Shown one piece after another: positions 1-20,694 of a stretch of DNA of 64,000 bases (position 1 is its first letter; every line of letters begins with the position of its first letter). The notes under the pieces were generated by a model. It searched no databases. It worked only from the letters and a program-made list of their open reading frames with translations, and was not told where the DNA came from. Made by a program: the position numbers and the translations under genes. This DNA is from an uncultured Bacteroidia bacterium (GTDB lineage: Bacteria > Bacteroidota > Bacteroidia > NS11-12g > UBA9320): positions 56,398-120,397 of the forward strand of contig CALSTB010000005.1 of the NCBI GenBank assembly GCA_943789165.1, written 5' to 3'.

Positions 1-2945
1 GTGGTATATACTCTGAAGACTCACCTACAATAACCAATTGCACCTTTTTCAATAACAAAGCAACTACCACTTCAAAAGGCGGTGGTGGTGTATATGCAAT
101 AAATGCAGGAACTACTACGGTATCAAATTGTATATTTTTTGGAAATAAAATAGGCTCATCTACGACTAATGTTGGTTCAGATATTAAAAACGGTACTGGT
201 CATACAACCACTGTAGACTACAGTATGGTACAACTTGCTAGCGGAAGTTATACCTCTGGAAACACCAATGCCCTCACATCTGCAACCAATATGGTCTATA
301 ACCAAGACCCATTATTCAGCGGTCATGGTGGTCCAGATGGAGTAGATAATGTATGGATGACGGAGGATGACGGACTCAGATTAAATAGTAATAGCCCTGC
401 AGTAGATGCGGGACTTAATAGTGCCATAAGTGGGTATTCTACAGATATTGTAGGTACTGCTCGTGTGGTGAATACTAACGTAAATATGGGAGCTTATGAG
501 GTTCTTTGTTCTGAAACGACTGAAACGATAACAGCAAATGTTTGTGATAGCTATACCTCTCCAAGTGGCAGGCATACCTGGTTTAGAACAGGAATATATA
601 AAGACACGATTCCAAACGCAGCAGGTTGCGATAGTATTCTAACAATAAACTTAACGGTAATTGCAACACCAATAGTTACTGTCAGCACGCTCGCTGGTAG
701 TTCTCAGGGCTATACAGATGGTACAGGGACATCGGCTCAGTTTAAATATCCTACTGGAGTAGCGGTCGATGGCGCTGGAAATGTGTATGTAGCGGATCAG
801 TTAAACCACCGCATTCGAAAAATAACTGCATCAGGTGTGGTCAGCACGCTCGCTGGTAGTTCTCAGGGCTATACAGATGGTACAGGGACATCGGCTAAGT
901 TTGACTATCCTATAGGAGTAGCGGTCGATGGCGATGGAAATGTGTATGTAGCGGATGGGTCAAACCACCGCATTCGAAAAATAACTACATCAGGTGTGGT
1001 CAGCACGCTCGCTGGTAGTACATATGGCTATACAGATGGTACAGGGACATCGGCTAAGTTTAACGGTCCTAGCGGAGTAGCGGTCGATGGCGCTGGAAAT
1101 GTGTATGTAGCGGATTACTTTAACCACCGCATTCGAAAAATAACTACATCAGGTGTGGTCAGCACGCTCGCTGGTAGTTCTCAGGGCTATACAGATGGTA
1201 CAGGGACATCGGCTAAGTTTGACTATCCTTATGGAGTAGCGGTCGATGGCGCTGGAAATGTGTATGTAGCGGATCAGAATAACCACCGCATTCGAAAAAT
1301 AACTGTATCAGGTGTGGTCAGCACGCTCGCTGGTAGTACAAATGGCTATACAGATGGTACAGGGACATCGGCTCAGTTTAAATATCCTACTGGAGTAGCG
1401 GTCGATGGCGCTGGAAATGTGTATGTAGCGGATGAGTCAAACCACCGCATTCGAAAAATAACTACATCAGGTGTGGTCAGCACGCTCGCTGGTAGTACAT
1501 CTGGCTATACAGATGGTACAGGGACATCGGCTCAGTTTAAATATCCTAGCGGAGTAGCGGTCGATGGCGCTGGAAATGTGTATGTAGCGGATATCAGTAA
1601 CCACAGCATTCGAAAAATAACGTTAAGTGCTGGTAGTGCTGAAACAACTGAAACGATAACAGCAAATGTATGTGATAGCTATACCTCTCCAAGTGGAAAA
1701 ACTTGGACAACAAGCAACACGTATTCAGATACGATTCCAAACACTGCGGGTTGTGATAGTGTTATCACGGTGAACCTTACGGTGAGATATAAAAGTTCCT
1801 TCTCGTTCGCAGAAACGGTATATGAAACCTTTACATCGCCAAGCGGAAAAACATGGACAAATTCAGGCACATATTTAGACACAATACCTAATGACGTTAA
1901 TTGTGACAGCATCATAACGGTCGATTTGACTGTAATCAACAAGTTATTTGTCGATACAGATGGTTCATCAGGAACAGGAAAATCATGGGGGACTTCAATG
2001 AAAACCCTAGATGACGCCATCAAAGTAGCTAATGCAACGGGCAATCATGCTGAAATATGGGTGCGTAAAGGAATGTATTATCCTGGCGGACAATCGAGCA
2101 GCAATCGAGATTCAGCGTTCCTAATTACCAATCCAAATGTTGAATTATTAGGAGGTTTTTCTGGAACAGAGACAGAGCCTGGTCAACGAAATCAAACGGC
2201 CAATCCAACCATATTGTGTGGAGATATCGGTACAACAAACGATTCCTCGGATAATGCATATCACGTATTGATTATTGCACCAAACGGATCAGACATCGGA
2301 CCTAATTTTAAACTAGATGGGTTAACCTTTAAAAACGGTAACGCTGACGGTAGCACTAAATATACGTATGGCAGTAGAGACGTTTACCAAACCGATGGGG
2401 GAGCAATAACGATTATGGGCAGTGGAACCACTGGTCAAGAGATTAGTCCAACGATTACCAATTGTCATTTTGAAGGAAATTATGGCGATTATGGCTCGAT
2501 TTACATACGCGTGCCTAATGGTAAGTCTTTTGCAACCATTAGCCATTGTACGTTTAAAAACAACCATTCAATTTATGGCGCTATCTTTAACGATGGTCAA
2601 GCAGGTGAAGTATCTCCAAACATTGTAAACTGTGCCTTTGATGGCAACACAAGTGCCACTTCGGGTGCAGCGATATACAACTATGGTTATGGAGGCAAAT
2701 GCTCTCCAACAATCACAAGTTGTGTGTTTAACAGCAACAGTGCTAGTTCAATGGGAGGAGCAATCTATAACACGGGTTATGGTGGAACATCCAATCCAGT
2801 GATCACAAACGCTACCTTCCATGCAAACGCAGCTGGTTCTCATGCAGGAGCGATGTATAGCTTTGGTAACAGCGGAACATGCCAACCTAAGGTGACCAAC
2901 TCTATCTTTTACAAAAACACAAAAGGTGGAGATGATGGACCATAA
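1..2945 (+). CDS. Giant T9SS-secreted adhesin-like protein, upstream part (5' end beyond window): Pmp-like right-handed beta-helix repeats, six NHL repeats, Cys-containing approx. 50-aa repeats
   Basis: Frame 3 is open from nt 3. Repeated NCTFxxN...GGAIY/GAAIYN motifs match polymorphic-membrane-protein-type beta-helix repeats. There are six YVAD..NHRIRKIT NHL repeats. A DPLF..DGxDNVW.TEDDGLRL...MGAYE motif occurs. The reading frame is interrupted at 2893-2945 and continues in the next ORF. Confidence 0.6.
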   Translation, partial: GIYSEDSPTITNCTFFNNKATTTSKGGGGVYAINAGTTTVSNCIFFGNKIGSSTTNVGSDIKNGTGHTTTVDYSMVQLASGSYTSGNTNALTSATNMVYNQDPLFSGHGGPDGVDNVWMTEDDGLRLNSNSPAVDAGLNSAISGYSTDIVGTARVVNTNVNMGAYEVLCSETTETITANVCDSYTSPSGRHTWFRTGIYKDTIPNAAGCDSILTINLTVIATPIVTVSTLAGSSQGYTDGTGTSAQFKYPTGVAVDGAGNVYVADQLNHRIRKITASGVVSTLAGSSQGYTDGTGTSAKFDYPIGVAVDGDGNVYVADGSNHRIRKITTSGVVSTLAGSTYGYTDGTGTSAKFNGPSGVAVDGAGNVYVADYFNHRIRKITTSGVVSTLAGSSQGYTDGTGTSAKFDYPYGVAVDGAGNVYVADQNNHRIRKITVSGVVSTLAGSTNGYTDGTGTSAQFKYPTGVAVDGAGNVYVADESNHRIRKITTSGVVSTLAGSTSGYTDGTGTSAQFKYPSGVAVDGAGNVYVADISNHSIRKITLSAGSAETTETITANVCDSYTSPSGKTWTTSNTYSDTIPNTAGCDSVITVNLTVRYKSSFSFAETVYETFTSPSGKTWTNSGTYLDTIPNDVNCDSIITVDLTVINKLFVDTDGSSGTGKSWGTSMKTLDDAIKVANATGNHAEIWVRKGMYYPGGQSSSNRDSAFLITNPNVELLGGFSGTETEPGQRNQTANPTILCGDIGTTNDSSDNAYHVLIIAPNGSDIGPNFKLDGLTFKNGNADGSTKYTYGSRDVYQTDGGAITIMGSGTTGQEISPTITNCHFEGNYGDYGSIYIRVPNGKSFATISHCTFKNNHSIYGAIFNDGQAGEVSPNIVNCAFDGNTSATSGAAIYNYGYGGKCSPTITSCVFNSNSASSMGGAIYNTGYGGTSNPVITNATFHANAAGSHAGAMYSFGNSGTCQPKVTNSIFYKNTKGGDDGP
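670..1625 (+). repeat. Six tandem 159-bp (53-aa) NHL-repeat units with near-identical DNA sequence
   Basis: The string gtcagcacgctcgctggtag recurs at 681, 840, 999, 1158, 1317 and 1476, a period of exactly 159 nt. Long blocks (gtagcggtcgatggcgctggaaatgtgtatgtagcggat, aaccaccgcattcgaaaaataact) are identical between units. Confidence 0.9.
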
Positions 2946-4410
2946 GTTTAGTGAGTTCTATAACTATGCAGCGTATCCATACATAAAAAATAGTTCGATG
3001 CAACGTGCAAGCTCAACATACACAGCAAGCACATTCAACAGCTTAAATAGTGGAACAAACAACATCTTCCAGACCAATCCAAACTTTGAGGCGATTGCCG
3101 ATGGCAATGGTGCGGATGATGTTTGGAGAACAGGAGATGATGGATTGAGATTATCTTCCTCAAGTACCAACTTGTTAAACGGTGGAACCAATACAGGTGC
3201 CCCAACTGCGGATATCTTAGGAAATCAGCGTATGGGAACAACCGACATGGGTGCTTACGAGTATGTCAACTGTGGCTTAAATGTTAAACTAGCTACTTCG
3301 GTTACCACTCATACAGCAACGCAAAGTGTTGTGGATGGTAATTTTGTATGCTACTGTAACAGCGACAATGAATTACTCTTGGCTCTTGACACCAATGGAA
3401 CTGGGGCGGTGATTACACCTAGTCAGGTAAAACTATACATTGGCAATCCATCAACCTTGAGTTACAACTCTGCTGGCGGTATGATAACCAACACGGCTGG
3501 TGGTGTGATACTAGAAAGACGTTGGGATGTGGAACCAACGACTCAACCAACTTCTCCTGTAACGGTTCGTTACTTCTACACCAACGACAACTACGGTGAC
3601 ATTGTAACGGCTATGGCTGGATTAACATCGCCTACAACCATTACTTCGCCAAGTCAACTACAGTTTTACAAGGTAACAGGCGGCTCATCGGCAACCTTCC
3701 CGAACCCACATGATACGGGAGTAACGGGTATTGTACTGACCAACGGAACAACAGCCAGCACAACAGTGTGGGTTAATGGAACACATGGTGTACAAGACCA
3801 TACAGCAGAATACCTAGTAAGCACGTTCTCCGGTGGTGGAGGCGGAGGCGGGGGTGGATCTAGCCCACTACCAGTGGAACTGATCCAGTTCGAAGCAAGC
3901 CCAGCAGCTAGTCATACAGCAGACCTTACATGGAAGACCGCATCAGAGCTAAACAACTCACATTTTGTAGTTGAACGTAGCTATGATGGTAGAGACTTCC
4001 AGGCAGCAGCAATTGTTCAAGGAAACGGGACAACACAAAACGTGATTACCTACAACCACAACGACAATACGATTGATCTAGCACAAAACACTGTGTTCTA
4101 TCGATTACGTCAGGTGGACTTTGATGGCACCACGGCTTACTCACCAGTAAGACGAGTAGACTTTGAAGGCAGCATCATACCAAACAGCGTAACGCTTTAT
4201 CCAAACCCAACAAAAGGAACGGTTACGGTTAGCTTTACAGACGATGAGGCTGAAAGTCATGCGATTAAAGTAATTGACAACCTCGGAAGAGAGCTGTACA
4301 AGCAAACCTTCGACGGACAAGCCATAGAGCTTGATTTGTCGAGCCAAGCAACGGGCATCTACTTTATCATTTTAGATTCTGGTGAATCCTTTAAAGTGAT
4401 TAAACAGTAG
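2926..4410 (+). CDS. Giant T9SS adhesin, downstream part: second DPLF..DDGLRL..MGAYEY module, poly-Gly linker, conserved pre-CTD approx. 100-aa domain, T9SS type-A C-terminal sorting domain
   Basis: It begins in a different frame 20 nt before the upstream ORF's stop. The C-terminus VTLYPNPTKGTVTVSF...GIYFIILDSGESFKVIKQ is a Por_Secre_tail (type A CTD). A G9 run sits at aa approx. 305. The LTWKTASELNNSHFVVERS...FYRLRQVDFDGTTAYSPV domain is shared with two other proteins in the window. Confidence 0.6.
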   Translation: MEMMDHKFSEFYNYAAYPYIKNSSMQRASSTYTASTFNSLNSGTNNIFQTNPNFEAIADGNGADDVWRTGDDGLRLSSSSTNLLNGGTNTGAPTADILGNQRMGTTDMGAYEYVNCGLNVKLATSVTTHTATQSVVDGNFVCYCNSDNELLLALDTNGTGAVITPSQVKLYIGNPSTLSYNSAGGMITNTAGGVILERRWDVEPTTQPTSPVTVRYFYTNDNYGDIVTAMAGLTSPTTITSPSQLQFYKVTGGSSATFPNPHDTGVTGIVLTNGTTASTTVWVNGTHGVQDHTAEYLVSTFSGGGGGGGGGSSPLPVELIQFEASPAASHTADLTWKTASELNNSHFVVERSYDGRDFQAAAIVQGNGTTQNVITYNHNDNTIDLAQNTVFYRLRQVDFDGTTAYSPVRRVDFEGSIIPNSVTLYPNPTKGTVTVSFTDDEAESHAIKVIDNLGRELYKQTFDGQAIELDLSSQATGIYFIILDSGESFKVIKQ

Positions 4411-4450
4411 TGAGAAAGTATCGTATTACTACACAAATACAATAAGAGAA

Positions 4451-4478
4451 GGCCATTCGTTTTACGGATGGCTTTTTT
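4451..4478 (+). terminator. Rho-independent terminator after the adhesin gene
   Basis: A 9-bp stem ggccattcg/cggatggct with two G.U pairs and loop tttta is followed by TTTTTT. Confidence 0.55.
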
Positions 4479-4619
4479 GTTGTTCAATTGATTTGAAAAT
4501 ATAAAAAGTGAAGTAAACAAGATATCGGGTTGGTGAAAGTATTTACGGATATAAGTTGGTTTAAGACCAGTAGCTAGTTACGAATACTAGTTTTATATAT
4601 TACTAACGCGTAATATTAT

Positions 4620-5591
4620 TTGTATATTCGCTTTATGGAGTTCAAGCCCCTTGAATCATATCTATCTGATCCTAGTCCTTACACAAGCCGTAGACTCGTG
4701 GAACAGTTGGGTGAGGAAAAGTTTACCATTAATGACATAGGCGTTAGTTCACGGGTGTTTACCCATTGGCGATCAAATGGGTTAATCCCTGAAATAGAGG
4801 ATGGCTCATGGGTAAAACTGAATGTGTTTCAATTTATCTGGGTACAGATAATTAAAGACTTGCGTGCGTTTAACTTTTCTTTAAAGCAGATTGTCAAAGT
4901 ACGCGCTTCGCTATTTGAGTCCTTCGAAGGGTTTGCTACGGCGGATTTGTTTGATAAAAAAGGAAAGATAACCAAGGTATTGCGAGCACAGCTTAAAAAG
5001 ATGTTCGACAATCACCAAGAGATAATTGAAGGCCTAGAAAGTGGTTTCGAGTCGGATTCAAATTCAATAAAAGATTTCCTTGAGGCTTTTCAAATCCCAT
5101 TGCTCCTATCACTTAGCTTGAACGTATTGTTCCGTGCAATGGATCACACGCTACTGATTAGGCCAGATGGTCGAGTTGATTATACTTCAGAAACGCAAGA
5201 CGAGACATTGGCCAATTACTTGTCCGAGCACGATGCGGAGTCCATCTTGGTGCTTCCACTCAAAAAGTACATTCTGGTGCTGGTATCGACAAAAAAACTA
5301 GAAGATAAAGTTGGTAATATGGCCCTGGTTACCCAAGTTGAAATGGAAGTTTTACAAGCCATGCGGCAGGGAACGCTATCCGAACTTAGAATAATTTTTG
5401 ACCCCAAAGACCAACACGCAGATTTGGTGTATACCTATAAAGGGGTTGTACCCGAAAATGAAATGAGTAAAGTTTTAGATCGTTTTCGGCATAAAAAACA
5501 CGTTCAATTGTCTATGAAAACCAATGACGGTAAAACGGTATCTTTCGAATACCAAGACCGAAAACGGGTCCATAAATTAAATGGAAATTAA
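4620..5591 (+). CDS. Hypothetical protein with N-terminal MerR/excisionase-like helix-turn-helix; unknown function, adjacent to iteron-like repeats and a serine recombinase
   Basis: TINDIGVSSRVFTHWRSNGLI resembles a MerR-type HTH; the rest has no recognisable family. The more likely start is the ATG at 4635 (MEFKPL). Confidence 0.5.
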   Translation: MYIRFMEFKPLESYLSDPSPYTSRRLVEQLGEEKFTINDIGVSSRVFTHWRSNGLIPEIEDGSWVKLNVFQFIWVQIIKDLRAFNFSLKQIVKVRASLFESFEGFATADLFDKKGKITKVLRAQLKKMFDNHQEIIEGLESGFESDSNSIKDFLEAFQIPLLLSLSLNVLFRAMDHTLLIRPDGRVDYTSETQDETLANYLSEHDAESILVLPLKKYILVLVSTKKLEDKVGNMALVTQVEMEVLQAMRQGTLSELRIIFDPKDQHADLVYTYKGVVPENEMSKVLDRFRHKKHVQLSMKTNDGKTVSFEYQDRKRVHKLNGN

Positions 5592-5690
5592 TTGATAATT
5601 AATTCAGATTAATTGATAATAAACTCGGATTAATTGATAATTAATTCAGATTAATTGATAATAAACTCGGATTAATTGATTTTTAAATGG
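5588..5690. repeat. Iteron-like array: five direct copies of TTAATTGATAA spaced approx. 21 bp, organised as 2.5 tandem copies of a 42-bp unit
   Basis: Copies start at 5588, 5608, 5630, 5651 and 5672 (the last is degenerate). The array is flanked by aaatggaaattaat at 5578 and 5684. Confidence 0.85.
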
Positions 5691-5926
5691 AAATTAATGG
5701 ACAAAAAGAGGTGTAGATGCAGTAATGACAAGGCATTGAAGAACTCAAGCCAATTAAATACGGGTTCATTAGAAACGGAAACACCGCTAATGGGCATACT
5801 CCAATTGAGTTATGTCAGAAAAGTCAAAACAAGGACTTACAATACAAGAATTAAAAACCTATAGCGGATTTGAAAAACTAAGTGAGAAGGAATTAGAACA
5901 AGCGCTTCGATTTATTGAGTTGATGA

Positions 5927-7543
5927 GTGAGGTGCTTATTGAAACATTTAAGTAAAAGAATAATGCAGCATGTAGATCAACAATTGGCAGTCTTTGCCAA
6001 AGGGCAAAAGAACAACAAAGGGAAGGCCATTACAGCGGTCATGTATACCCGTGTATCGACCAAGGAACAGGCCGATAACAATCAGAGTCTCTTTACGCAA
6101 GCAAAGCACATCAAGCAATTTGCAATGAACAATGATTTGCAGATAATAGGGGAATTTGGTGGGACTTATGAAAGCGCCAAGAGTGATGAACGGGTTCAGT
6201 TCAAACAAATGATTGCCTTTGTCAAAAGACATAAGGTAGATGCCATTGTGGTATACTCGATGGATCGCTTTTCAAGAAGTGGTCCCAATGCTATTTACAT
6301 TTCAGAACAACTCAGAAAGATAGGTACTGAGATTATATCTGTAACCCAACCTGTAGACGCCTCTACAGCTGCTGGGGAATTGCAACAGGGAATTTACTTT
6401 ATGTTCTCACAATATGAGAATCAGCAAAGGCGCTTAAAGTCCATGGCGGGCACCCGTGAAAAGCTATTACAAGGACATTGGGTTACCAAACCACCCTTAG
6501 GGTACAAGAAGATCACAGAAGGTGGACAAAAGAAAATAGTCATCACAAAAGAAGGTAGATTGCTGGCAGCAGCATTTAGAAGAAAGATTAAGTACAACTA
6601 CGAATTTACTGAAATTAGTAAGTGGCTGTCAACAAGAGGTCTAAAGGTGAGTCATAAAAGATTATCTGAGTTATGTAGAAACGTATTTTATTGCGGTTTC
6701 ATGGCCCATCAGGCATTAAATGGAGAGATTGTAAAGGGCAATCATGAAGGACTCATCACACGTAATGAGTTCTTGAAGCTGAATGGCATGCTTCAAATCA
6801 GACCTGCCAAAAAGCCAAAATCAAAAATGTTGGATCATCTACCCTTAAAGAGGCACATGCATTGCTCAAAGTGCAGCAAACCAATGACGGGTTACTTTGT
6901 GCGACCAAAGAAGTTATATTACTACAAGTGCAATACGAAAGGTTGTAAAGTCAATAGAAGTGCTAAGGTGTTAAACCGAAACTGGGAACAGACGCTTTCC
7001 AATCTTCAGATAGATGCAAAATACGTTACACCCATCCAAGAACAGCTCAAAAGAAAGCTCGAAAGCTTAAAAGAAGACTCTGGTGATGGGCTAAAACAGT
7101 ATCGCAGTAACAAAACAAAGGTTGAGAGGAAGATAGAGATGTTGGAAGAACGATTTGTAATAGGAGAAATTACCAAAGACTTATTTGATAAGTACGCTGC
7201 TAAATATAGAGAAGAATTGGTGGCAATATTAGAAGAAATCGACAAATGTGGAATTTCATTATCGAACCCTGATCAGGTAATCAAGCAGGCCACTGATTTG
7301 ATGTCTAAACTTCAGAAAACCTGGCAGTTATCAAAATCAACAGAAAGATCAAAGTTGCTTAAAGCGGTCTACCCAAGCGGAATTTGGCTTGATCCTGAAA
7401 ATAACAGTTATCGAACTTTTGGTTTGAACCCAGCGGTGCGCTGTATCCTAGATATAACGGGGAAATCCGTAGAAAAGGAAAAGCGGAATAGTGAAGATAA
7501 ACTCACATATTCCGCTTTGGTAGAGGGAATCAGAACGTTATAG
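5927..7543 (+). mobile_element. Large serine recombinase (resolvase/integrase family with recombinase domain and zinc ribbon)
   Basis: N-terminal catalytic motif VMYTRVSTKEQ...DRFSRS. The C-terminus carries CSKCSKPMTGYF...YYYKCNTKGC, a zinc ribbon typical of large serine recombinases, followed by a coiled-coil tail. Length is 538 aa. The true start may be an internal Met. Confidence 0.9.
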
Positions 7544-7581
7544 AACTTTTGTTGCAGAGGCGGAAAATTCTGACATGCCAT

Positions 7582-7836
7582 AGTTAATGCAACAGAACCA
7601 AGTTTACACATTCGGCACCAGAAGCATTTAACGAACTAATGAAACAAAACGAGCAATCGATCCGACCAAGTTTGGTGAGACCAACGTTTGATATTGGTTT
7701 GGGATATCGATTTACGTCACATCTGAGCGTACAAGCTCAGTTTCGAAAATCTTGGACAACCAAATCGGTGTTAATTGCTGACCCCAATAAGCTAAACACG
7801 TCTGGTGTTAAATTAGGTTTGATGTATCGGTTTTAA
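7582..7836 (+). pseudogene. 3' remnant of an outer-membrane beta-barrel protein gene (no start codon, C-terminal ...GLMYRF)
   Basis: The sequence alternates hydrophobic beta-strand residues and ends in a C-terminal Phe, typical of OMP beta-barrels. The frame is open only from the stop at approx. 7579 and the N-terminal part is absent. It sits immediately 3' of the serine recombinase. Confidence 0.4.
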
Positions 7837-7860
7837 TACCTGATACTCCTATTTCTTTGT

Positions 7861-7868
7861 TACTTTTG
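7861..7868 (+). promoter_or_regulatory. Bacteroidetes sigma-A -7 element TAnnTTTG (TACTTTTG) 17 bp upstream of the aldehyde dehydrogenase start
   Basis: Exact match to the Bacteroidetes -7 consensus at the expected distance from the ATG. The identical octamer recurs at 21727 and 55730. Confidence 0.35.
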
Positions 7869-7885
7869 ACCTGTAAAACAGCCCT

Positions 7886-9328
7886 ATGTTTCAGCTCAAA
7901 AACTATATCAACGGTGAGTTAGTACCACCTGCTTCTATTCAGTATATCGACAATTTCGAACCAGCTACTGGTAAAATATATGCGCAAATTCCAAGATCGG
8001 ATAAGGCAGATATTGATAAAGCCGTCGCATCTGCCAAAGCAGCGTTTCCAGCTTGGAGTAAAATGCGCACTGAAGAGCGAAGTGCCATCATTATGAAGTT
8101 GTCAGATCTAATTGAGGAGAATTTAGATCGATTGGCAGAAGCGGAAAGTCGAGACAATGGCAAACCTCTGTGGTTGGCTAAATCTGTAGATATTCCTAGA
8201 GCTCGTGATAATTTTGGTTTTTTTGGAACAGCCATCAAACACTTTGCAAGTGAAAGTCATCGAACGGGTGAAGGCTTAATCAATTTTACAACAAGAACAC
8301 CCATCGGAGTGGCGGGTTGTGTTTCCCCATGGAATTTGCCCTTGTATTTGTTTAGTTGGAAGGTGGCTCCAGCATTGGCTGCAGGCAATACCGTCGTCGC
8401 CAAACCAAGTGAAGTGACACCTATGACGGCTTATTTGTTGTCGGAGTTGTGTATCGAAGCAGGTTTTCCAAAGGGCGTTTTTAACATCGTACATGGACTC
8501 GGCGCAGAAGCAGGTAACGCGATTGTCGAACATCCTGATGTGCCGATTATTTCCTTTACTGGAGGAACATCTACGGGTGCTCACATCGCACGAACAGCAG
8601 CACCGATGTTTAAGAAATTGAGCTTGGAACTGGGCGGAAAAAACCCAAACATCATTTTTGATGACTGCGATTTTGACAAAGCATTAAAAACGACATTGAA
8701 TTCATCATTTGCCAATCAAGGTCAAATCTGTTTGTGTGGATCGAGAATTTATATCCAACGAGGAATCTATGAAAAATTCCGTGATGCCTTTGTTGACAAA
8801 GTATCCAAGTTTAAAGTGGGCAACCCCATGGCTGATGATAGCCGTATGGGCGCCATCGTTTCTGAACAACACTTCGAAAAAGTAAAAAGCTATATCGCCC
8901 TAGCGAAAGAAGAAGGTGGGACGATTTTGACGGGTGGAGAGGCAGTTCAGCTGGATGGAGAATTTGCCGAGGGTTGGTACTTAAGACCTACTATTATTGA
9001 AGGACTGGATGAGAATTGTCGCACCAATCAAGAAGAGATCTTCGGACCTGTGGTGACGATCCAACCGTTTGATACGGAAGAAGAAGCCTTGGCTTTAGCG
9101 AACTCAACTGGCTATGGTTTGGCCTCAACTATTTGGACTCAGGACATATCAAAAGCACACCGAATGGCTGATACAATCAAAGCCGGCATCGTTTGGGTGA
9201 ATTGTTGGTTGGTCCGTGATTTGCGAACTCCATTTGGGGGCATGAAAAACTCTGGCGTCGGGCGTGAAGGCGGCTGGGAAGCATTGAAGTTTTTTACCGA
9301 AGCGAAGAATATTTGCATCAAGTATTAA
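7886..9328 (+). CDS. NAD(P)-dependent aldehyde dehydrogenase
   Basis: ALDH hallmarks are present: ELGGKNP, catalytic Cys in FANQGQICLCGSRIY, a GxGxxG-like FTGGTSTG, and a length of 480 aa. Confidence 0.9.
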   Translation: MFQLKNYINGELVPPASIQYIDNFEPATGKIYAQIPRSDKADIDKAVASAKAAFPAWSKMRTEERSAIIMKLSDLIEENLDRLAEAESRDNGKPLWLAKSVDIPRARDNFGFFGTAIKHFASESHRTGEGLINFTTRTPIGVAGCVSPWNLPLYLFSWKVAPALAAGNTVVAKPSEVTPMTAYLLSELCIEAGFPKGVFNIVHGLGAEAGNAIVEHPDVPIISFTGGTSTGAHIARTAAPMFKKLSLELGGKNPNIIFDDCDFDKALKTTLNSSFANQGQICLCGSRIYIQRGIYEKFRDAFVDKVSKFKVGNPMADDSRMGAIVSEQHFEKVKSYIALAKEEGGTILTGGEAVQLDGEFAEGWYLRPTIIEGLDENCRTNQEEIFGPVVTIQPFDTEEEALALANSTGYGLASTIWTQDISKAHRMADTIKAGIVWVNCWLVRDLRTPFGGMKNSGVGREGGWEALKFFTEAKNICIKY

Positions 9329-14907: not shown

Positions 14908-15555
14908 TTAGTTCTTCATCCAGCCAGCAATGCTGCTTCGATCTCTAGTGGGAGACGCATTGACTTCATGCGACATTTCATCGCTTCTGAAAAACACCAT
15001 ACGCCCACCAATTGGAGTTATGTGAACGACTTCTTGGTCTCTTGGGTGTAGTGACAAAGCTCCTCCGTCTTCACTTTTCCAGTCATCGTTGAGGTATAAA
15101 ACGATTGAAAATTTGCGACCTTGTTCGGATTTGAATTGGTCAACATGACGTTTATACATAGAGCCCTTTTCATAAGAGGCGTAGTGACTTTCAAAACTTG
15201 CAATCGAGGTATAGCATGTTTTGTTTAAATGGCTGATAAACTTAGAGACCTTAGCCAAATACAGCATTTCAAATGGATCCTGACTTATGGCTTCAATCCA
15301 ATTAATTTTATCGCCTCGAATGTGTGAGTTAAACTGAAACTTTGATTGATTTCCAATGCCCGATTCTTTCAACTTGCCGGCCTCAGATAATCGATGAAGA
15401 TTGTTACGTAAACCAACAACAGTTTCTGGTGATAAGAAATCGTTGCAGCAACCAAAAGCATTGTCAATTAGACCTTGAATCAGTTCTTCAAATTGAATCG
15501 CCTCAGAATCCATAAATACAACTTTAATTGTTTTCCTAACTGAATGGATATCCAA
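14908..15555 (-). CDS. 2-oxoglutarate/Fe(II)-dependent oxygenase (prolyl 4-hydroxylase-like)
   Basis: HxD...H facial triad (YKRHVDQF ... GGALSLH) and a P4Hc-like LYLNDDW motif. Confidence 0.7.
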   Translation of the reverse strand: MDIHSVRKTIKVVFMDSEAIQFEELIQGLIDNAFGCCNDFLSPETVVGLRNNLHRLSEAGKLKESGIGNQSKFQFNSHIRGDKINWIEAISQDPFEMLYLAKVSKFISHLNKTCYTSIASFESHYASYEKGSMYKRHVDQFKSEQGRKFSIVLYLNDDWKSEDGGALSLHPRDQEVVHITPIGGRMVFFRSDEMSHEVNASPTRDRSSIAGWMKN

Positions 15556-15655
15556 TGAGGAGGTAGTAAAGAAAGGTATTTATTTGATCATTTTACAAGA
15601 AAATAATTGCGTAAAAATTGAGGTGCATTTTGTGTAGAAAATGATTGCGGAATCA

Positions 15656-16687
15656 CTACTTTACAATCCTAAACCCAAAGTGGTTGTTGCCTCGGTTTTC
15701 GAAGTCCGATGCCCGCGCATATGTCAAAAGTGTGGCAGAATGGTAATTCCATGAACCACCTCGACGCACACGTTTGGCCTCTGACCCTGCATTAGAATTC
15801 ATAGGGTTTGTTACGCCGTCTTTATAAAAAGAGGCGCTATAATAATCTTGACACCATTCCCACACATTGCCACCCATGTCGTATAATTTGTAAGGGTTTG
15901 GAGGGTAATACCCTGTGACAACCGAATGCCCGTCTGGATCATAAACACCTGGAGTATCGCCGTTGTAGTTGGCCTTGGCTGAGGACAATGTCCCGTCATC
16001 GGTTGGGTATTGAAGTTGTTGTCCGCCGCGTGCTGCATATTCCCATTGCGCTTCGGTTGGTAAGCTTACATTGTAATATTGAGCGAAAGCATTTGCGCCA
16101 AACCATTTGACCCAATTAACTGGCCAGTCTACATTCTTACTATTTAGGACCTCAAAGGTATTGTTGGTCGTGTTAAAAGTGATCCAACTTTTGTTATTGA
16201 TGTGTTCTGGCTCACCGCCACTGGTGCAACCGCCTGTTTCACCAAGTTGAACATATATTTCACCCGCATTTGGTGCACTGCCTTTTCCTTTAACTACTTT
16301 TTCGGTACTTGAACCGCATGGGTCGGCTACTTTTTCGTCAACCACTTCAATCCATCCGTCAGCATAAGCAGCATTCAAAAAATCGACATATTGTTGGTTG
16401 GTAATTTCCTTTTCCGACATAGTAAATGCCGAAAGTGTAACGCTCACTTCTGGCGCGTCATTGGCCATTGTGGTTCCACCCATGGTAAACGTTCCTGCAG
16501 GTATGTCGACCATTTTTATACTCGATGGGAGGTCGTTGTTTTGGGTGTTTGGGTTGTCAGAGATTGGCTCCTCTTTGTCGCCGCATGAAGAACAGAGCAA
16601 CGCGGTACATATTACAAAAGCCAATTGTAAAAGAGTTTTTGGGGAATAGTATCTATTGACAGTCATTAAACGATTCTTTGCTTGCAA
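15656..16687 (-). CDS. FGE-sulfatase (SUMF1) domain lipoprotein
   Basis: Lipobox LLCSSC. FGE-domain motifs FTMGG, WEWCQDYY, RVRRGGSWNY and a C-terminal GFRIVK. It is a stand-alone gene, not in a gldKLMN context. Confidence 0.75.
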   Translation of the reverse strand: MQAKNRLMTVNRYYSPKTLLQLAFVICTALLCSSCGDKEEPISDNPNTQNNDLPSSIKMVDIPAGTFTMGGTTMANDAPEVSVTLSAFTMSEKEITNQQYVDFLNAAYADGWIEVVDEKVADPCGSSTEKVVKGKGSAPNAGEIYVQLGETGGCTSGGEPEHINNKSWITFNTTNNTFEVLNSKNVDWPVNWVKWFGANAFAQYYNVSLPTEAQWEYAARGGQQLQYPTDDGTLSSAKANYNGDTPGVYDPDGHSVVTGYYPPNPYKLYDMGGNVWEWCQDYYSASFYKDGVTNPMNSNAGSEAKRVRRGGSWNYHSATLLTYARASDFENRGNNHFGFRIVK

Positions 16688-16754
16688 ATTACAGAAAACA
16701 TGGGAACCACTTATTTAATATTGGTAACACTGCGTGAAAAATGCTGGTTGACGC

Positions 16755-17732
16755 TTAAAACAACAACTTCATCAACACGACAATCACCACTAATGCAATC
16801 GCAAAGATGATTCCGCCGAAGATGAGGCCTTTTTTACCCGCCGTTAAAAGGGATCGTAATCCAACCTTTAAACCAATGGCCGCCATAGCCATCGCCAACA
16901 AAAAATTACTGGTGTGCTTAACAGAGGTTAGAAAGGTGGAAGGTAGAGCAACAAAGGAAAAAACGATGGAGATGAGAATGAATGCCACCAAGTACCAAGG
17001 TAGCTTGGCGCGCTTTTTAACACCGTTTTCAACTTCTTTAAAACTAGCTCCAAAGATGAGGAGGGCAGGAGTGAGTAAGGCAACGCGACCTAGTTTAATT
17101 GTCACAGCCATTTCTCCAATGGTGTCGCTCATGGCAAATCCTGCGCCTGCCACATTGCCTACAGCATGAAGTGATGCACCAATTAGGATGCTGTTTTCTA
17201 CATCTGTCAACAGTTCTGCAGTCAAGAAGGGAATGGCAATCATGCCAATCAAACCATATAGGTTGACAACAGCCAATGCCAAACCAATGTCGGCCTTGTC
17301 TTTTACCACCTTAGGTGCGAGTGCAGCAATTGCCGCCGAACCACAGATGGCAGTTCCAAATCCGATAAGCCAGCCTGTGCTTCCCGGACAGTTTAATTTT
17401 TTTGCTAATGATTTGGTCAGGACTAAAACCACAATCATAGTTACGGCAACCAATACGACTGATTGCCACCCAAGTTTGGCCAAGCTTCCGTAATTAATGC
17501 CAAAAGCCATTAACGCAATGGATATTTCCAAAACGCGACCACTACTAAATTTAATACCAAGTGTCGAGGATTCTGGTAACTTGATAATATTACCAACTGC
17601 TACGCCGATTATAAGCGCCATTAAAACCGAATTGAATCCAATCAAATCGGAAAGATAGTACGCCAGTAGGGTGATTAATAAAACAATCGCCGTACCTAAA
17701 AAGCGAGAACTTATTTGGGAAATAAGTCGCAC
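16755..17732 (-). CDS. Polytopic membrane protein, YeiH/UPF0324 (putative sulfate exporter) family-like
   Basis: Roughly 10 hydrophobic helices over 325 aa. The stop overlaps the start of the rhodanese gene by 1 nt. The family assignment comes from overall topology and composition only. Confidence 0.45.
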   Translation of the reverse strand: MRLISQISSRFLGTAIVLLITLLAYYLSDLIGFNSVLMALIIGVAVGNIIKLPESSTLGIKFSSGRVLEISIALMAFGINYGSLAKLGWQSVVLVAVTMIVVLVLTKSLAKKLNCPGSTGWLIGFGTAICGSAAIAALAPKVVKDKADIGLALAVVNLYGLIGMIAIPFLTAELLTDVENSILIGASLHAVGNVAGAGFAMSDTIGEMAVTIKLGRVALLTPALLIFGASFKEVENGVKKRAKLPWYLVAFILISIVFSFVALPSTFLTSVKHTSNFLLAMAMAAIGLKVGLRSLLTAGKKGLIFGGIIFAIALVVIVVLMKLLF

Positions 17733-18148
17733 TATTTTACCACTTCGCCAGTGTAACTAGAGATACCTCCATTCAAGTTGTAGACAGTTTTAAAGCCATT
17801 GTCAATCATAAATTGAGCTGCTTTTCCACTTCGTCCACCGCTTCTGCAATACATGACGTACGTTTTTGATTTGTCGAGTTTCTTTATTTCTTCCTGAAAT
17901 CCATCGGAATAGAAATCAATAAACGTGGTCGCTCCAGTGATGTAACCTTCTGCCACTTCTTCTGGTGTGCGCACATCTACCAAAACTACGTTGTCTTCAG
18001 CTACTTTTGAGGCTAAGTCATTTTGGTTTAAGTCCTGAACAGCAACCGATTGAGTTGATTCTGTGGTTTGGTCAACACTACTTTGTTTGGATGATTGACA
18101 TCCCACAAAACATAAAATACTTAGCGATAAGAATACAAATGCTTTCAT
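17732..18148 (-). CDS. Rhodanese-domain sulfurtransferase lipoprotein
   Basis: Lipobox FVGC. Rhodanese fold with active-site Cys in YCRSGGRSG. Confidence 0.8.
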   Translation of the reverse strand: MKAFVFLSLSILCFVGCQSSKQSSVDQTTESTQSVAVQDLNQNDLASKVAEDNVVLVDVRTPEEVAEGYITGATTFIDFYSDGFQEEIKKLDKSKTYVMYCRSGGRSGKAAQFMIDNGFKTVYNLNGGISSYTGEVVK

Positions 18149-18252
18149 TTCAATTTTTTATAATTCGAAGTTACATCCAAATTGAATAAGATAGCTATTG
18201 GAAGTTTTGATGAAGATATTGGCAACCCTAATACTTGGGTTATAGCGCCTTA

Positions 18253-19164
18253 TTAAGTCTTGTTTATACCCTCTTCGTACTGACTACGATTCGAAGGGTC
18301 CATCTTACTCAACAATTCAATTACTTTGTTTTTGATAGTTGGAGAGGCTTGGTTAAACACCTGGATAAGTTCTTCCGTTTTAGAGTTGAAGAACAGTTTT
18401 AACAAAAACGCGTTTGGTAAAGCGTCATACACCAACTTTAAATCTTTAACACTTTGGTAGATTTCATTTCTACCAGCTTCAATGTCAGTCGACATGACGT
18501 CTAACCCTTTAATGTGATACCGATACAACGCTGAACGCAAAGGTTTAAAACGTGGATCTAAGATGTTGTCGATTAAAAAATACTTGTTCCGACTCCCGTT
18601 TCCAGCATTTGACTGCCAGCCACCGGCTTGTTGGGTTCCAATATTGGCAACGTCGCGAATGTTAAGCGCTTTTGCGAAATATGGATCACCACCGTTTAAT
18701 TGATAGGTATCAAAGTCCAATCCAATGATGATGTTGGCATAAAACGCCAAAAGGCTAGTTAAGTTAGAAGTGTATGAGTTTTCTTGAAATTCAAGTGACT
18801 GAAATTGTGCATAGGTAAACACCACTGCATTGTCGAGGTAACTGAACACCTTCGTATTATAAGATGAGTTGTATACGGTCCGACTACTTTGAATATTGAT
18901 GTTGGCTTGAATCTGGTCGATTTCAAACTTCGTTACTTCAAAAACGATGTTGCAATTAATTTTTTCATTTGCCGCAACAGTTCCTGTTACCCATTTTCTA
19001 TTGTTCATGAACTGGACAATAGAGTTTTTTAAGTCGTCGAAGATTTGTTTGTTCGTTACTTGTACCTGACTGGTAATGACATCCACAGTGCAATTCAGGT
19101 CTTGAGCAAAGGCCCCAATACCCGAGAAAATAAAGGTCAAAAGGATGAGAAGGGTTTTCTTCAT
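18253..19164 (-). CDS. Secreted hypothetical protein (DUF4835-like, conserved next to coaBC in Bacteroidetes)
   Basis: Signal peptide MKKTLLILLTFIFSGIGAFAQ. The family assignment is tentative. Confidence 0.35.
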   Translation of the reverse strand: MKKTLLILLTFIFSGIGAFAQDLNCTVDVITSQVQVTNKQIFDDLKNSIVQFMNNRKWVTGTVAANEKINCNIVFEVTKFEIDQIQANINIQSSRTVYNSSYNTKVFSYLDNAVVFTYAQFQSLEFQENSYTSNLTSLLAFYANIIIGLDFDTYQLNGGDPYFAKALNIRDVANIGTQQAGGWQSNAGNGSRNKYFLIDNILDPRFKPLRSALYRYHIKGLDVMSTDIEAGRNEIYQSVKDLKLVYDALPNAFLLKLFFNSKTEELIQVFNQASPTIKNKVIELLSKMDPSNRSQYEEGINKT

Positions 19165-19167
19165 GAA

Positions 19168-20372: not shown

Positions 20373-20685
20373 CTTTTGAAGGGTTTCTGAAATACACTTG
20401 GCCGTTCAGAAATTCTTCAGTTGCCATTAACGTTGGCTTCGGTAAAGACTCGTAATATTTAGAGATTTCGATTTGCTCTCTGTTCTCAAATATTTCTTCT
20501 AAGTTGTCTGTGTCTGATGCGAATTCATCCAACTTTGCATTTAACTCCTCCTTTAATTGTGCAGAAAGTTGATTGGCTCTCTTACCAATAATGACAACAG
20601 ATTCATACAAGTTGCCTGTTGGTAGGTCCAATTCTCTTGTGTCTCTTGAAATCGTTGTGTTAGGTGCGTCGATGTGCTTGTTCAT
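20362..20685 (-). CDS. rpoZ: DNA-directed RNA polymerase omega subunit-like protein
   Basis: NLYESVVIIGKRANQLSAQLKEEL resembles the omega core motif. Length is 107 aa. It lies between bamD and coaBC, as in other Bacteroidetes. Confidence 0.5.
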   Translation of the reverse strand: MNKHIDAPNTTISRDTRELDLPTGNLYESVVIIGKRANQLSAQLKEELNAKLDEFASDTDNLEEIFENREQIEISKYYESLPKPTLMATEEFLNGQVYFRNPSKDVE

Positions 20686-20694
20686 ATCTCAAAT

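What the first reader, a model, noticed from the sequence alone, without database searches (positions are those of the whole stretch)
4620..7840. Candidate end of an integrative element: HTH protein, iteron-like repeat array, large serine recombinase, truncated OMP gene
A 538-aa large serine recombinase (catalytic S in RVSTKEQ plus zinc ribbon) is followed within 40-95 bp by a start-less 3' fragment of an outer-membrane beta-barrel gene ending ...GLMYRF. This is the signature of integration into a gene by a serine integrase, which produces no target duplication. Upstream of the recombinase lie five phased TTAATTGATAA repeats spaced about 21 bp apart, and a 323-aa protein whose only recognisable feature is an N-terminal MerR/Xis-like HTH. 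The trio of DNA-binding protein, iterons and integrase is typical of a replication- or excision-control module of an ICE, integrative mobilisable element or prophage. None of these genes is assigned here to a characterised element family. If the OMP remnant marks attR, the element lies to the left and may include the giant adhesin at 1-4410, with the other junction outside the window.
Basis: partly seen in the sequence, partly recalled or inferred. Interest (0 to 1): 0.8.

Follow-up and report, generated by a model that had tools for sequence, protein, structure and literature searches.

The report
Serine-integrase element that targets tRNA ends
The window holds the right-hand end of a multicopy mobile element of marine Bacteroidia whose large serine integrase gene ends in its own attachment site; relatives of this integrase sit at the 3' tip of tRNA genes, a target that a 2020 survey said had not been reported for serine integrases, and here the element sits on a tRNA-like decoy site and did not split the outer-membrane gene.

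Summary

- **Junction.** It lies at window 7520-7523 (GTAG), inside the last codons of the recombinase gene. Public contigs carrying the same element (98-100% identical) diverge exactly there, into at least 8 different right flanks.
- **Family target.** 47 of 80 related loci have a tRNA or tmRNA gene on the opposite strand whose 3' end overlaps the recombinase stop.
- **Terminator.** The last ~15 codons of the recombinase encode, on the antisense strand, a strong hairpin plus U-run. This would work as a replacement terminator for the tRNA (inferred).
- **Decoy site.** The 27 nt after GTAG in the window are a tRNA-T-arm-like sequence. It also forms the left boundary of ~10-kb adhesin-carrying copies of the element elsewhere.
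- **OMP fragment.** Strains without the element at this site (Z|X allele) carry the identical truncated fragment, so this element did not truncate it.
- **Conserved core.** A MerR-type HTH protein, a 47-aa ORF and the recombinase.
- **Repeats.** The 21-bp array is real but lineage-specific, with 3 or 5 copies.
- **Adhesin.** It probably travels with the element. The left end lies outside the window.

Verdict: a new variant of a known kind, of moderately high interest.

The parts
1..4410 (+). 3' part of a giant T9SS adhesin gene (NHL repeats, Por_Secre_tail). It appears as two overlapping ORFs, 225-2945 and 2926-4410. It is probably cargo of the element.
   Evidence: Pfam NHL, TEN_NHL and Por_Secre_tail. 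The same adhesin 3' region lies left of the recombinase module in contigs with different right flanks.
4450..4479 (+). Terminator-like hairpin and T-run after the adhesin gene.
   Evidence: Read from the sequence: GCCATTCG-TTTTA-CGGATGGC followed by TTTTTT. It was not reported by the simple terminator scan of 4300-7950.
4494..4536 (+). Degenerate direct copy of the element's right end (relic P-type arm ending in TTGGTGA).
   Evidence: Local alignment to 7463-7530 and comparison by eye. The L007 and L011 relatives have well-preserved copies of the right end at the equivalent place.
4570..4573 (+). Candidate inner left boundary of the three-gene core (GTAG|CTAGTTACGAATA).
   Evidence: L094 has GTAG|CTGTTGAATA 48 nt before its ORF1, with an unrelated left flank. 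Contig L086 starts at window-equivalent 4587. This arm lacks the TTATCGAAC motif of the other left arms, so it is only a candidate.
4598..4615 (+). Palindrome TATTAC-N6-GTAATA just upstream of ORF1. It is a probable operator for the MerR-type protein.
   Evidence: Read from the sequence. Different palindromes occupy the same position in L007, L008, L010 and L094. Function is inferred.
4635..5591 (+). ORF1, 318 aa (323 aa from TTG 4620). It has an N-terminal MerR-type winged HTH and a C-terminal two-thirds of unknown fold. It is the conserved partner of the recombinase.
   Evidence: Found upstream of the recombinase in about 20 of 80 loci by tblastn. The family has 1316 representatives. MerR match. 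The AF2 model is poor, pLDDT 59.
5587..5682 (+). Array of 21-bp repeats (4 exact and 1 degenerate ATTAATTGATAA). It is lineage-specific and variable in copy number.
   Evidence: L005 has 3 copies and L094 has 5. The array is absent in L006-L011. Sequence divergence changes abruptly here in L005 and L107.
5732..5751 (+). Conserved hairpin GGCATTGA-AGAAC-TCAAGCC upstream of ORF2.
   Evidence: Present with compensatory changes, judged by eye and not counted, in L006, L007, L010, L072, L078 and L054. No Rfam family matches.
5812..5955 (+). ORF2, 47 aa, conserved small protein directly upstream of the recombinase.
   Evidence: Called in every public contig. A homologous ORF with the motif GL(T/S)xxEL..GFE..ELxxAL.FIE is present in L006, L007, L008 and L010.
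5963..7543 (+). Large serine recombinase (526 aa from ATG 5963). The last 6 codons (EGIRTL*) are encoded by the flank.
   Evidence: Cluster members differ only in the tail after ...YSALV.
7369..7421 (+). Internal sequence in the recombinase gene that resembles a left-arm half-site (CTACCCAAGCGGAAT ... GTTATCGAACTTTT).
   Evidence: the repeat finder I2 and D11. The same feature occurs in L007, L008 and L011. It encodes the invariant YP.GI and YRT motifs. Its significance is unknown.
7480..7518 (-). Right-arm (P) hairpin. On the minus strand it forms a stem-loop followed by a U-run, like an intrinsic terminator. It is embedded in recombinase codons KRN...YSAL.
   Evidence: The perfect 11-nt arms are I19. 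RNA fold gives -20.6 kcal/mol, z=-6.7. Equivalent hairpins with different stem sequences occur in 7 other family members.
7520..7523 (.). Crossover core GTAG, the right junction of the element.
   Evidence: Identity to L001, L005, L085, L086 and L089 ends at 7523. Identity to L002-L004 and L098-L100 begins at 7520.
7524..7550 (+). tRNA-T-arm-like right arm (AGGGAATCAGAACGTTATAGAACTTTT). It is a decoy or relic attachment half-site, not a tRNA.
   Evidence: 25 of 26 identical to the sequence that follows GTAG at the left boundary of the adhesin block in L089, L091, L111, L112, L114 and L115 (22 of 26 to L001). ARAGORN finds no tRNA and Rfam finds nothing.
7639..7836 (+). 65-aa C-terminal fragment of an OMP beta-barrel. 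It is an older pseudogene remnant and is not part of the element.
   Evidence: Pfam OMP_b-brl positions 131-175 of 175. It is identical in occupied and unoccupied alleles. No homolog other than itself was found.

Best explanation
Window 1-7523 is the right-hand part of an integrated, multicopy mobile element of an uncultured marine Bacteroidia species.

**Conserved core.** Three genes: ORF1 (a MerR-type HTH protein), ORF2 (47 aa) and a large serine recombinase (LSR).

**Right end.** The element ends at GTAG (7520-7523), inside the LSR's last codons, so the LSR's C-terminal tail depends on where the element sits.

**Usual target (inferred mechanism).** In this LSR family the target is the extreme 3' end of a tRNA or tmRNA gene on the opposite strand, with the crossover at about the discriminator/CCA position (TGGTAG is the reverse complement of CTACCA). 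I infer that the half-site on the tRNA side is read through the universal T-loop sequence (ATCGAAC, the reverse complement of GTTCGAT), which lies at a fixed distance from the acceptor end. That would explain the use of many different tRNAs.

**Built-in terminator (inferred function).** The arm on the element side is a hairpin plus T-run embedded in the LSR coding sequence. On the tRNA strand it forms an intrinsic terminator that would replace the one displaced by insertion.

**This copy.** The element is not joined to a tRNA. It is joined to a 27-nt tRNA-T-arm-like decoy or relic half-site that lay upstream of an already truncated OMP gene. Strains with the unoccupied site (Z-GTAG-X) coexist with occupied ones.

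**Extent.** The adhesin gene to the left most likely travels with the core as a ~10-kb composite. Its left boundary, GTAG|GGGGAATCAGAACGTTATCGAAC, is predicted about 3.6 kb left of the window start.

**Accessory genes (inferred).** ORF1 probably regulates the module through the palindrome in front of its own gene, and ORF1 or ORF2 may act as a directionality or accessory factor.

**What is shown and what is inferred.** Shown: the junction positions, the alleles, the tRNA association, the hairpins and the gene conservation. Inferred: catalysis by the LSR, T-loop recognition, terminator function, and the roles of ORF1 and ORF2.
For: **Junction.** Identity of 99-99.8% to L001, L005, L085, L086 and L089 ends at window 7523. 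Beyond it lie different flanks:
- HD/PIG-L genes (site Y)
- tRNA-Met at two loci
- tRNA-Glu next to gapA
- a tRNA-Glu-like stub next to ruvB

.

**Tails.** Members of the cluster at 90% identity or more are nearly identical up to ...YSALV and then carry at least 8 different tails. JGI and ENA marine metagenomes add more junctions.

**X site alleles.** The occupied form is in the window and L096. The unoccupied form Z|X is in L003, L004, L098, L099 and L100. Identity starts exactly at 7520.

**Family trait.** 47 of 80 loci (47 of the 70 with enough flank) have a tRNA or tmRNA on the opposite strand whose 3' end lies 35-116 nt before the LSR stop in all but two of them. They cover Met, Glu, Arg, Leu, Ala, Thr, Asp, Val, Lys and tmRNA.

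**Hairpin.** Hairpin plus U-run in 8 of 8 members folded, z from -3.6 to -7.5, with different stem sequences.

**Left junctions.**
- L008 has unrelated flank-GTAG|CACGAATCC..., while L007 and L011 have another right-end copy there.
- The right-arm 30-mer occurs with 5 different left arms and 3 different interiors.
- Contig L112 starts exactly at GTAG|GGGGAATCAG and is colinear with the L089 unit, which sits at another locus.

**Multicopy.** L109, L111 and L118 carry a second, inverted copy 4 kb away.

**Core conservation.** ORF1 and the LSR are the only ORFs of 70 aa or more shared across loci. ORF2, below that length limit, is conserved too.

**Literature.** PMC7192596 (2020) states that S-Ints were not known to target tRNA genes (14 of 297 cases, 'not reported previously').
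Against: - The left end of the window's own copy is not visible.
- The shared sequence to the left has no fixed boundary. It fades out inside the NHL repeats at different points. This pattern fits homologous exchange better than a single site-specific end.
- L111, L114 and L115 share a right flank but have different left arms. L094 and L089 share a right flank but differ to the left of a breakpoint inside ORF1. These are not simple insertions, so rearrangement or tandem arrays must also occur.
- No circular junction and no empty tRNA site was recovered.
- All data are assemblies, mostly metagenomic. One scaffold (L002) looks chimeric.
- The crossover dinucleotide within GTAG is not resolved.
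- Recognition of the T-loop is inferred only from sequence patterns.
Confidence: 0.72

Rival explanations
1. One reading: a serine integrase element integrated into an outer-membrane beta-barrel gene. The 3' fragment at 7582-7836 is then the displaced half of the target and marks attR.
For: The fragment matches only the C-terminal 45 positions of OMP_b-brl, so it really is truncated. It lies 40-95 nt from the recombinase stop.
Against: Contigs without the element at this site carry the same 65-aa fragment and the same 116 nt upstream of it. The junction is at 7520-7523. The sequence next to it is a conserved 27-nt attachment arm, not OMP coding sequence. The family targets tRNA 3' ends.
Confidence: 0.04
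2. Only the ~3-kb three-gene core (about 4574-7523) is the mobile unit, and the adhesin is a chromosomal neighbour. The many right flanks joined to 'adhesin + core' would then come from LSR-mediated or homologous rearrangements between copies and pseudo-sites.
For: - Only ORF1, ORF2 and the LSR are conserved across the family.
- L008 has a clean 3.2-kb unit flanked by GTAG.
- L094 has a core without an adhesin.
- Contigs start at window-equivalent 4587 and about 4479.
- A relic right-end copy lies at 4494-4536.
- There is an inverted second copy with a truncated LSR.
- Similarity to the left has no fixed boundary.
Against: - In every contig of the near-identical element (LSR at least 98% identical) whose left flank is visible, that flank is the adhesin. 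The only exception is the mosaic L094.
- The GTAG|P' boundary upstream of the adhesin block occurs with several different left arms.
- L112 breaks exactly at that boundary.
- The inner arm lacks the TTATCGAAC motif.
Confidence: 0.2
3. The LSR runs a programmed site-specific shuffling system. Portable sites (terminator hairpin - GTAG - pseudo-tRNA 30-mer) in front of surface-protein genes let it excise, invert or exchange adhesin cassettes, so this would not be a classical insertion element.
For: - Five left arms combine with three interiors at the same 30-mer.
- Adhesin N-terminal modules vary behind a constant 3' part.
- L007 has an array of such sites separating single-ORF units.
- There are inverted copies flanking a 4-kb segment.
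Against: Across species, insertion at tRNA 3' ends dominates. The adhesin linkage is seen only in this lineage. No pair of contigs demonstrates an inversion or a reciprocal product. The variation could be between strains rather than within a clone.
Confidence: 0.1
4. The varying flanks are assembly chimeras caused by a repeated element in metagenomes.
For: L002 joins phage-like genes to Z through a scaffold gap and a duplicated segment. Several contigs break at element boundaries.
Against: Breaks fall at the same nucleotide in more than 15 independent assemblies from ENA, NCBI, JGI and Logan. tRNA overlap holds in isolate genomes such as Pontibacter, Formosa, Dokdonia and Chitinophaga. P|X is seen twice independently, in the window and in L096.
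Confidence: 0.03

Closest known systems
Large serine integrases and transposases of phages and integrative elements (phiC31, Bxb1, A118; TnpX of Tn4451, TndX of Tn5397; CcrA/B of SCCmec; XisF)
   Same: Domain set of Resolvase, Recombinase and zinc ribbon, with the catalytic Ser motif. It is integrase-like by PHROG 95 (E=6.5e-70). Junctions share only a 4-nt core, with no long target duplication. As with TnpX and TndX, there are several insertion sites, and the sites resemble the element's ends.
   Different: - Only 22-27% identity to any phage integrase in GenBank phages.
- Far below the NCBIfam cutoffs for XisF and the Ccr proteins.
- The target is the 3' tip of tRNA genes.
- The crossover lies inside the integrase ORF.
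- One arm doubles as a terminator hairpin.
- No phage or conjugation genes are seen next to it.
tRNA-targeting genomic islands and prophages with tyrosine integrases
   Same: Insertion at the 3' end of tRNA or tmRNA genes preserves the tRNA. The integrase gene is adjacent to the tRNA. Tandem arrays form at the same site (PMC7192596).
   Different: The catalyst is a serine recombinase, not a tyrosine recombinase. There is no long direct repeat of the tRNA 3' part: the crossover is at about the discriminator/CCA position, so only about 4-6 nt are shared.
SSV1-type archaeal virus integrases (attP inside the int gene) - from general knowledge, not tested here
   Same: The attachment site lies within the integrase ORF, so integration changes the gene product.
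   Different: SSV-type enzymes are tyrosine recombinases and their gene is split in two. Here only the last few codons are exchanged and the enzyme stays intact.
IS607-family serine transposases
   Same: A MerR-like HTH is combined with serine-recombinase chemistry in a small, promiscuous element.
   Different: Here the HTH is on a separate 318-aa protein and the recombinase is of the large type. The NCBIfam IS607 score is 45 bits against a cutoff of 110.
Integron cassette arrays
   Same: Arrays of units are separated by hairpin-containing sites next to the recombinase (L007).
   Different: The recombinase is a serine type, not the tyrosine IntI. The sites are not attC. The array is anchored at a tRNA gene. 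Cassette exchange has not been demonstrated.

Membership tests
Large serine recombinase (integrase type) | N-terminal resolvase catalytic domain with the nucleophilic serine | tested here: met
   Pfam Resolvase E=9e-26. YTRVSTKEQ is invariant in 20 homologs.
Large serine recombinase (integrase type) | Recombinase domain and zinc-ribbon domain C-terminal to the catalytic domain | tested here: met
   Pfam Recombinase E=4.3e-6. The four invariant Cys are C301, C304, C323 and C328. PF13408 is annotated in several homologs.
Large serine recombinase (integrase type) | Short att sites with a 2-bp crossover and no target-site duplication | tested here: inconclusive
   Only the 4-nt GTAG is shared by all junction types. 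The dinucleotide within it could not be resolved.
Large serine recombinase (integrase type) | Catalyses integration and excision of the element that carries it | not testable with these tools
   At least 8 right junctions and two alleles at site X imply mobility. No circular form was recovered.
Prophage | Phage structural or replication genes within the element | tested here: not met
   None are present in the 10 kb left of the recombinase in L001, L089 or L109-L118. The closest phage integrase is 27% identical.
Integrative conjugative or mobilisable element | Relaxase, T4SS or oriT genes | tested here: not met
   No such Pfam families appear among the called genes of any locus within 10 kb. 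The far-left part of the window's copy is unseen.
Iteron-controlled replicon | Rep initiator next to conserved iterons | tested here: not met
   ORF1 has no Rep-like match in Pfam, NCBIfam, PHROGs or PDB. The array is missing in relatives and varies between 3 and 5 copies.
MerR-family regulator (ORF1) | N-terminal winged-HTH of MerR type | tested here: met
   The family profile matches 5e01 and 5d90 at E=3e-6 over residues 33-114. MerR_1 hits 54 of 77 members.
MerR-family regulator (ORF1) | Dimerisation coiled coil and effector domain; binding to a dyad in the promoter spacer | not tested
   A palindrome at 4598-4615 lies in front of the gene. The C-terminal 200 aa have no recognisable homolog, and the AF2 model has pLDDT 59.
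IS607 family | Small serine recombinase with a fused N-terminal MerR-like HTH | tested here: not met
   NCBIfam transpos_IS607 scores 45.2 bits against a cutoff of 110. The recombinase is 526 aa and has no HTH fusion.
tRNA gene (flank X) | Cloverleaf detectable by ARAGORN or Rfam | tested here: not met
   There is no tRNA in the window and no Rfam match in 4300-7950. Only about 17 nt resemble the tRNA-Met 3' end.

The most novel reading that the evidence does not exclude
A Bacteroidota-wide clade of large serine recombinases has evolved to read the universal geometry of tRNA 3' ends (T-loop plus acceptor tip). These enzymes carry their own attachment arm inside their stop-proximal codons, and that arm doubles as a replacement tRNA terminator. 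In this marine lineage, pseudo-tRNA 30-mers behind terminator hairpins serve as portable landing or exchange sites. Through them the enzyme moves and reshuffles T9SS adhesin cassettes. This would be an integron-like cassette system built on a serine recombinase.
Probability: 0.15. Interest if true: 0.85.

Novelty: new variant of a known kind. Interest (0 to 1): 0.63.

Why it matters
- **Unusual target.** Serine integrases are prized genome-engineering tools and are thought to avoid tRNA genes. A 2020 survey found 14 cases among 297 and called the use 'not reported previously' (PMC7192596).
- **Specificity.** If the enzyme reads the T-loop and acceptor geometry, it would be a natural example of a serine integrase with a predictable, near-universal target.
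- **Annotation.** The attachment site lies inside the integrase ORF and one arm carries a built-in terminator. This changes how such elements should be delimited: the integrase's C-terminal tail reports the insertion site.
- **Ecology.** For marine Bacteroidia, the link to giant T9SS adhesins suggests a route for spreading or varying surface proteins.

Tried and rejected
**Look-ups that returned nothing**
- Exact look-ups of the recombinase from GTG 5927 and ATG 5963 found nothing, because the tail is site-specific.
- Look-up of the adhesin C-terminal ORF found nothing.

**Searches that returned nothing or little**
- A metagenome scan for the Z-GTAG-arm junction found nothing.
- The word-based search with ORF1 gave only 5 hits. 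The profile search was needed.
- ORF1 has no Pfam, NCBIfam or PHROG family, and the 6-sequence profile has no PDB match.
- The OMP fragment has no homolog but itself, so no intact version could be used to define a target.
- Rfam found nothing in 4300-7950.
- The simple terminator scan missed the right-arm hairpin because its loop is longer than 8 nt.

**Analyses not pursued**
- The AF2 model of ORF1 was too poor (pLDDT 59) to justify a fold search.

**Ideas dropped**
- My first candidate for the left arm, TA|CTAACGCGTAATAT at 4601-4616, is better explained as an operator palindrome. Relatives have different palindromes at the same place.
- I considered that flank X might be a decayed tRNA. Only about 17 nt align.
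- I considered that L002 shows a prophage at the site. It is a gapped scaffold with a duplicated segment, and every other Z contig has the L003-type left sequence.

**Literature**
- Searches found no description of this family. Subscription journals are not covered.

Full report

- ORF 4620-5591 is real. Public gene calls start it at ATG 4635, giving 318 aa.
- The repeat array has four exact TTAATTGATAA copies exactly 21 bp apart and a fifth degenerate copy. TRF reports period 21 and period 42, the latter at 100% match.
- The large serine recombinase (LSR) probably runs from ATG 5963 to 7543 (526 aa). It has Pfam Resolvase and Recombinase domains, an invariant YTRVSTKEQ motif and four invariant zinc-ribbon cysteines.
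- The 65-aa ORF at 7639-7836 matches only the last 45 positions of the OMP_b-brl profile.

**2. Where the junction really is.** A public contig with a 100% identical recombinase (L001) is 99.4% identical to the window from 2660 to 7523. It then diverges completely, 20 nt before the recombinase stop.

The same break at 7523 is seen against four other sources:

- L005, the GTDB species representative 'Bacteroidia bacterium 3300054976_154'
- L085
- L086
- L089-L095

The right flanks beyond the break are all different:

| Right flank | Locus |
|---|---|
| HD/PIG-L genes (site Y) | L001 |
| tRNA-Met | L005 |
| a second tRNA-Met locus | L086 |
| tRNA-Glu next to gapA | L085 |
| tRNA-Glu-like stub next to ruvB | L089-L095 |

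Contigs that share the window's right side include three with an aldehyde dehydrogenase identical in protein sequence. In those three, DNA identity is 99.95-100%, and it begins exactly at 7520. To the left they carry a different sequence, Z. The shared core is therefore GTAG (7520-7523).

The 90%-identity cluster of the recombinase contains near-identical proteins that differ only after ...YSALV, with at least 8 different tails. Marine JGI and ENA metagenomes add further junctions. The element is therefore mobile or recombinationally active, and its right end lies inside its own recombinase gene.

**3. The family targets tRNA 3' ends.** An alignment of homologs showed C-terminal tails such as RIELPTSGL and GIEP. 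These are antisense translations of tRNA T-arms.

I scanned one genome per GTDB species.

- 47 of the 80 loci have a tRNA or tmRNA on the opposite strand next to the recombinase stop. That is 47 of the 70 loci with enough flank.
- In all but two of them the tRNA 3' end lies 35-116 nt upstream of the stop.
- The tRNAs are Met 13, Glu 11, Arg 8, Leu 7, Ala 3, and Thr, Asp, Val, Lys and tmRNA 1 each.

The junction maps to about the discriminator/CCA position, because TGGTAG is the reverse complement of CTACCA.

Mageeney et al. 2020 (PMC7192596) state that S-Ints were 'not known for targeting tRNA genes'. They found 14 cases in 297 and called the use previously unreported. My other literature searches found no description of this clade. 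The closest phage integrases are only 22-27% identical.

**4. A terminator inside the coding sequence.** Immediately on the element side of the junction, every family member has an A-run, an inverted repeat and a T-run. The stem sequences differ between members.

I folded the tRNA-sense strand of eight members. All give a strong hairpin (-16 to -25 kcal/mol, z from -3.6 to -7.5) followed by a U-run that starts 4-5 nt after the tRNA 3' end. In the window this is 7480-7518, which encodes KRN...YSAL.

I infer that this arm is both the recombinase's half-site and a replacement intrinsic terminator for the tRNA gene, whose own terminator is displaced by insertion.

**5. What abuts the recombinase in the window.** The 27 nt after GTAG (AGGGAATCAGAACGTTATAGAACTTTT) are not a tRNA.

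They are 25 of 26 identical to a sequence that follows GTAG upstream of the adhesin block in L089/L091, L111, L112, L114 and L115, and 22 of 26 identical to the copy in L001. That 30-mer contains GAATC.G and TTATCGAAC motifs, like the antisense of a tRNA T-arm. The left arms of the L007, L008 and L011 elements contain the same motifs.

The 30-mer occurs with five different left arms, each a hairpin plus a few nt plus GTAG. It is followed by three different interiors. Z is itself about 75% identical to the left arm of L111.

Site X has two alleles in the population:

- unoccupied Z|X in L003, L004, L098, L099 and L100
- occupied P|X in the window and in the independent assembly L096

Both alleles carry the identical 65-aa OMP fragment, 116 nt downstream of the junction. 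So the OMP gene was truncated earlier and is not the target of this element. The fragment has no database homolog other than itself.

**6. Extent of the element.** Across species, only ORF1, the 47-aa ORF2 and the LSR are conserved. L008 shows a clean 3.2-kb unit: unrelated flank-GTAG|CACGAATCC...LSR...GGTAG|tRNA-Glu. L007 and L011 have another right-end copy at the left junction, which indicates tandem arrays.

In the window's lineage, every contig of the near-identical element with a visible left flank has the same T9SS adhesin 3' region there. The only exception is the mosaic L094.

- L089 (ruvB site) and L112 (tRNA-Glu site) contain the same ~10-kb unit: P' arm, 111-aa and 183-aa ORFs, adhesin, ORF1, ORF2 and LSR.
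- Contig L112 starts exactly at GTAG|GGGGAATCAG.
- L109, L111 and L118 hold a second, inverted copy with a 65-aa LSR stub 4 kb away, which shows multicopy status in one genome.

I therefore favour a composite element that includes the adhesin, with its left end about 3.6 kb left of the window.

The alternative is that only 4574-7523 is the unit. Several observations support it:

- a relic right-end copy at 4494-4536
- GTAG|CTAGTT at 4570-4573
- the adhesin-less core of L094
- contig starts at window-equivalent 4587 and about 4479
- the lack of a fixed left boundary of similarity inside the NHL repeats

.

Mosaicism is evident. L094 switches inside ORF1. In L005 and L107 divergence drops abruptly at the repeat array: 88.6% versus 96.7% in L107.

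**7. Accessory parts.**

- ORF1 belongs to a large unannotated family of 1316 representatives. It has a MerR-type N-terminal HTH. The rest of the protein is unknown, and the AF2 model is poor.
- A palindrome at 4598-4615 precedes ORF1. Relatives have different palindromes at the same place. This suggests autoregulation, which is an inference.
- The 21-bp array starts at the ORF1 stop codon. It has 5 copies in the window and L094 and 3 in L005, and it is absent from L006-L011. It is a lineage-specific VNTR, perhaps a binding platform, and not a conserved iteron origin.
- A hairpin at 5732-5751 upstream of ORF2 appears conserved with compensatory changes. I judged this by eye and did not count it.

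**8. Verdict.** This is an element end, the element lies to the left, and the adhesin is probably included. But the crossover is inside the LSR ORF, the OMP fragment is a bystander, and the repeats are not a conserved module.

The wider result is a Bacteroidota clade of large serine recombinases that insert at the 3' tip of tRNA genes and carry a terminator-like arm in their own coding sequence. This is a new variant of a known kind. What remains uncertain is the left end of this copy, the exact crossover dinucleotide, and whether the many arm combinations reflect transposition, tandem accretion or programmed shuffling.

Noticed in passing
window 2926-2945: The adhesin reading frame is split into two overlapping ORFs (225-2945 and 2926-4410). 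Relatives have one ORF of 1665-2146 aa. This is either a frameshift or a sequencing error in a repeat-rich gene.
   Followed up: no
window 5732-5751: The hairpin GGCATTGA-AGAAC-TCAAGCC upstream of the 47-aa ORF is conserved in distant relatives, apparently with compensatory stem changes such as AGAT..ATCT and GTC..GAC. Some Rufibacter and Pontibacter loci have two copies. No Rfam family matches.
   Followed up: partly
window 7369-7421: The recombinase gene contains a sequence like a left-arm half-site. CTACCCAAGCGGAAT is 89% complementary to the right end, and GTTATCGAACTTTT is repeated 130 nt downstream in flank X. It encodes the invariant YP.GI and YRT motifs, so protein and DNA constraints cannot be separated.
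   Followed up: partly
L109, L111, L118 (about 15450-21596): A second, inverted copy of adhesin-ORF1-ORF2 with the recombinase cut to a 65-aa stub lies 4 kb beyond tRNA-Glu/gapA and replaces the fixH-fixG-fixP genes seen in L110, L112 and L116. It may mark a rearrangement or inversion between element copies.
   Followed up: no
L007 172, 1639, 1721, 2940, 6152: An array of GTAG/GTAC sites with left-arm-like sequences separates single-ORF units upstream of the core. The site at 1721 is a near-perfect dyad (GGTTCGATAA...GTAG...TTATCGAAT). It looks like tandem accretion or a cassette array.
   Followed up: partly
L002 1-9512: Phage-like genes (NinG, AAA_25, 5'-3' exonuclease, DUF3310, DnaA_C-like) are joined to Z in one gapped scaffold that has a 96%-identical duplicated segment. 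All other Z contigs have the L003-type left sequence, so this join is probably chimeric.
   Followed up: partly
L003 2650-4830: An IS3-family element (HTH_Tnp_1 and rve) and an inverted NHL-adhesin fragment lie just left of Z in the unoccupied allele. A ~40-nt direct repeat occurs at 4566-4605 and 4679-4718.
   Followed up: no
L005 vs window 5629-5638; L107 vs window: Sequence identity jumps at the repeat array. In L107 the adhesin-ORF1 side is 88.6% identical and the ORF2-LSR side 96.7%. In L005 the figures are 95.7% and 99.1%. The right part of the module appears to have been exchanged more recently than the left.
   Followed up: partly
L105, L106, L108, L089 right flanks: Several right flanks carry only 18-20 nt of tRNA-like sequence (up to GAATCGAAC), followed by unrelated DNA. 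These could be solo half-sites or relics of earlier events.
   Followed up: no
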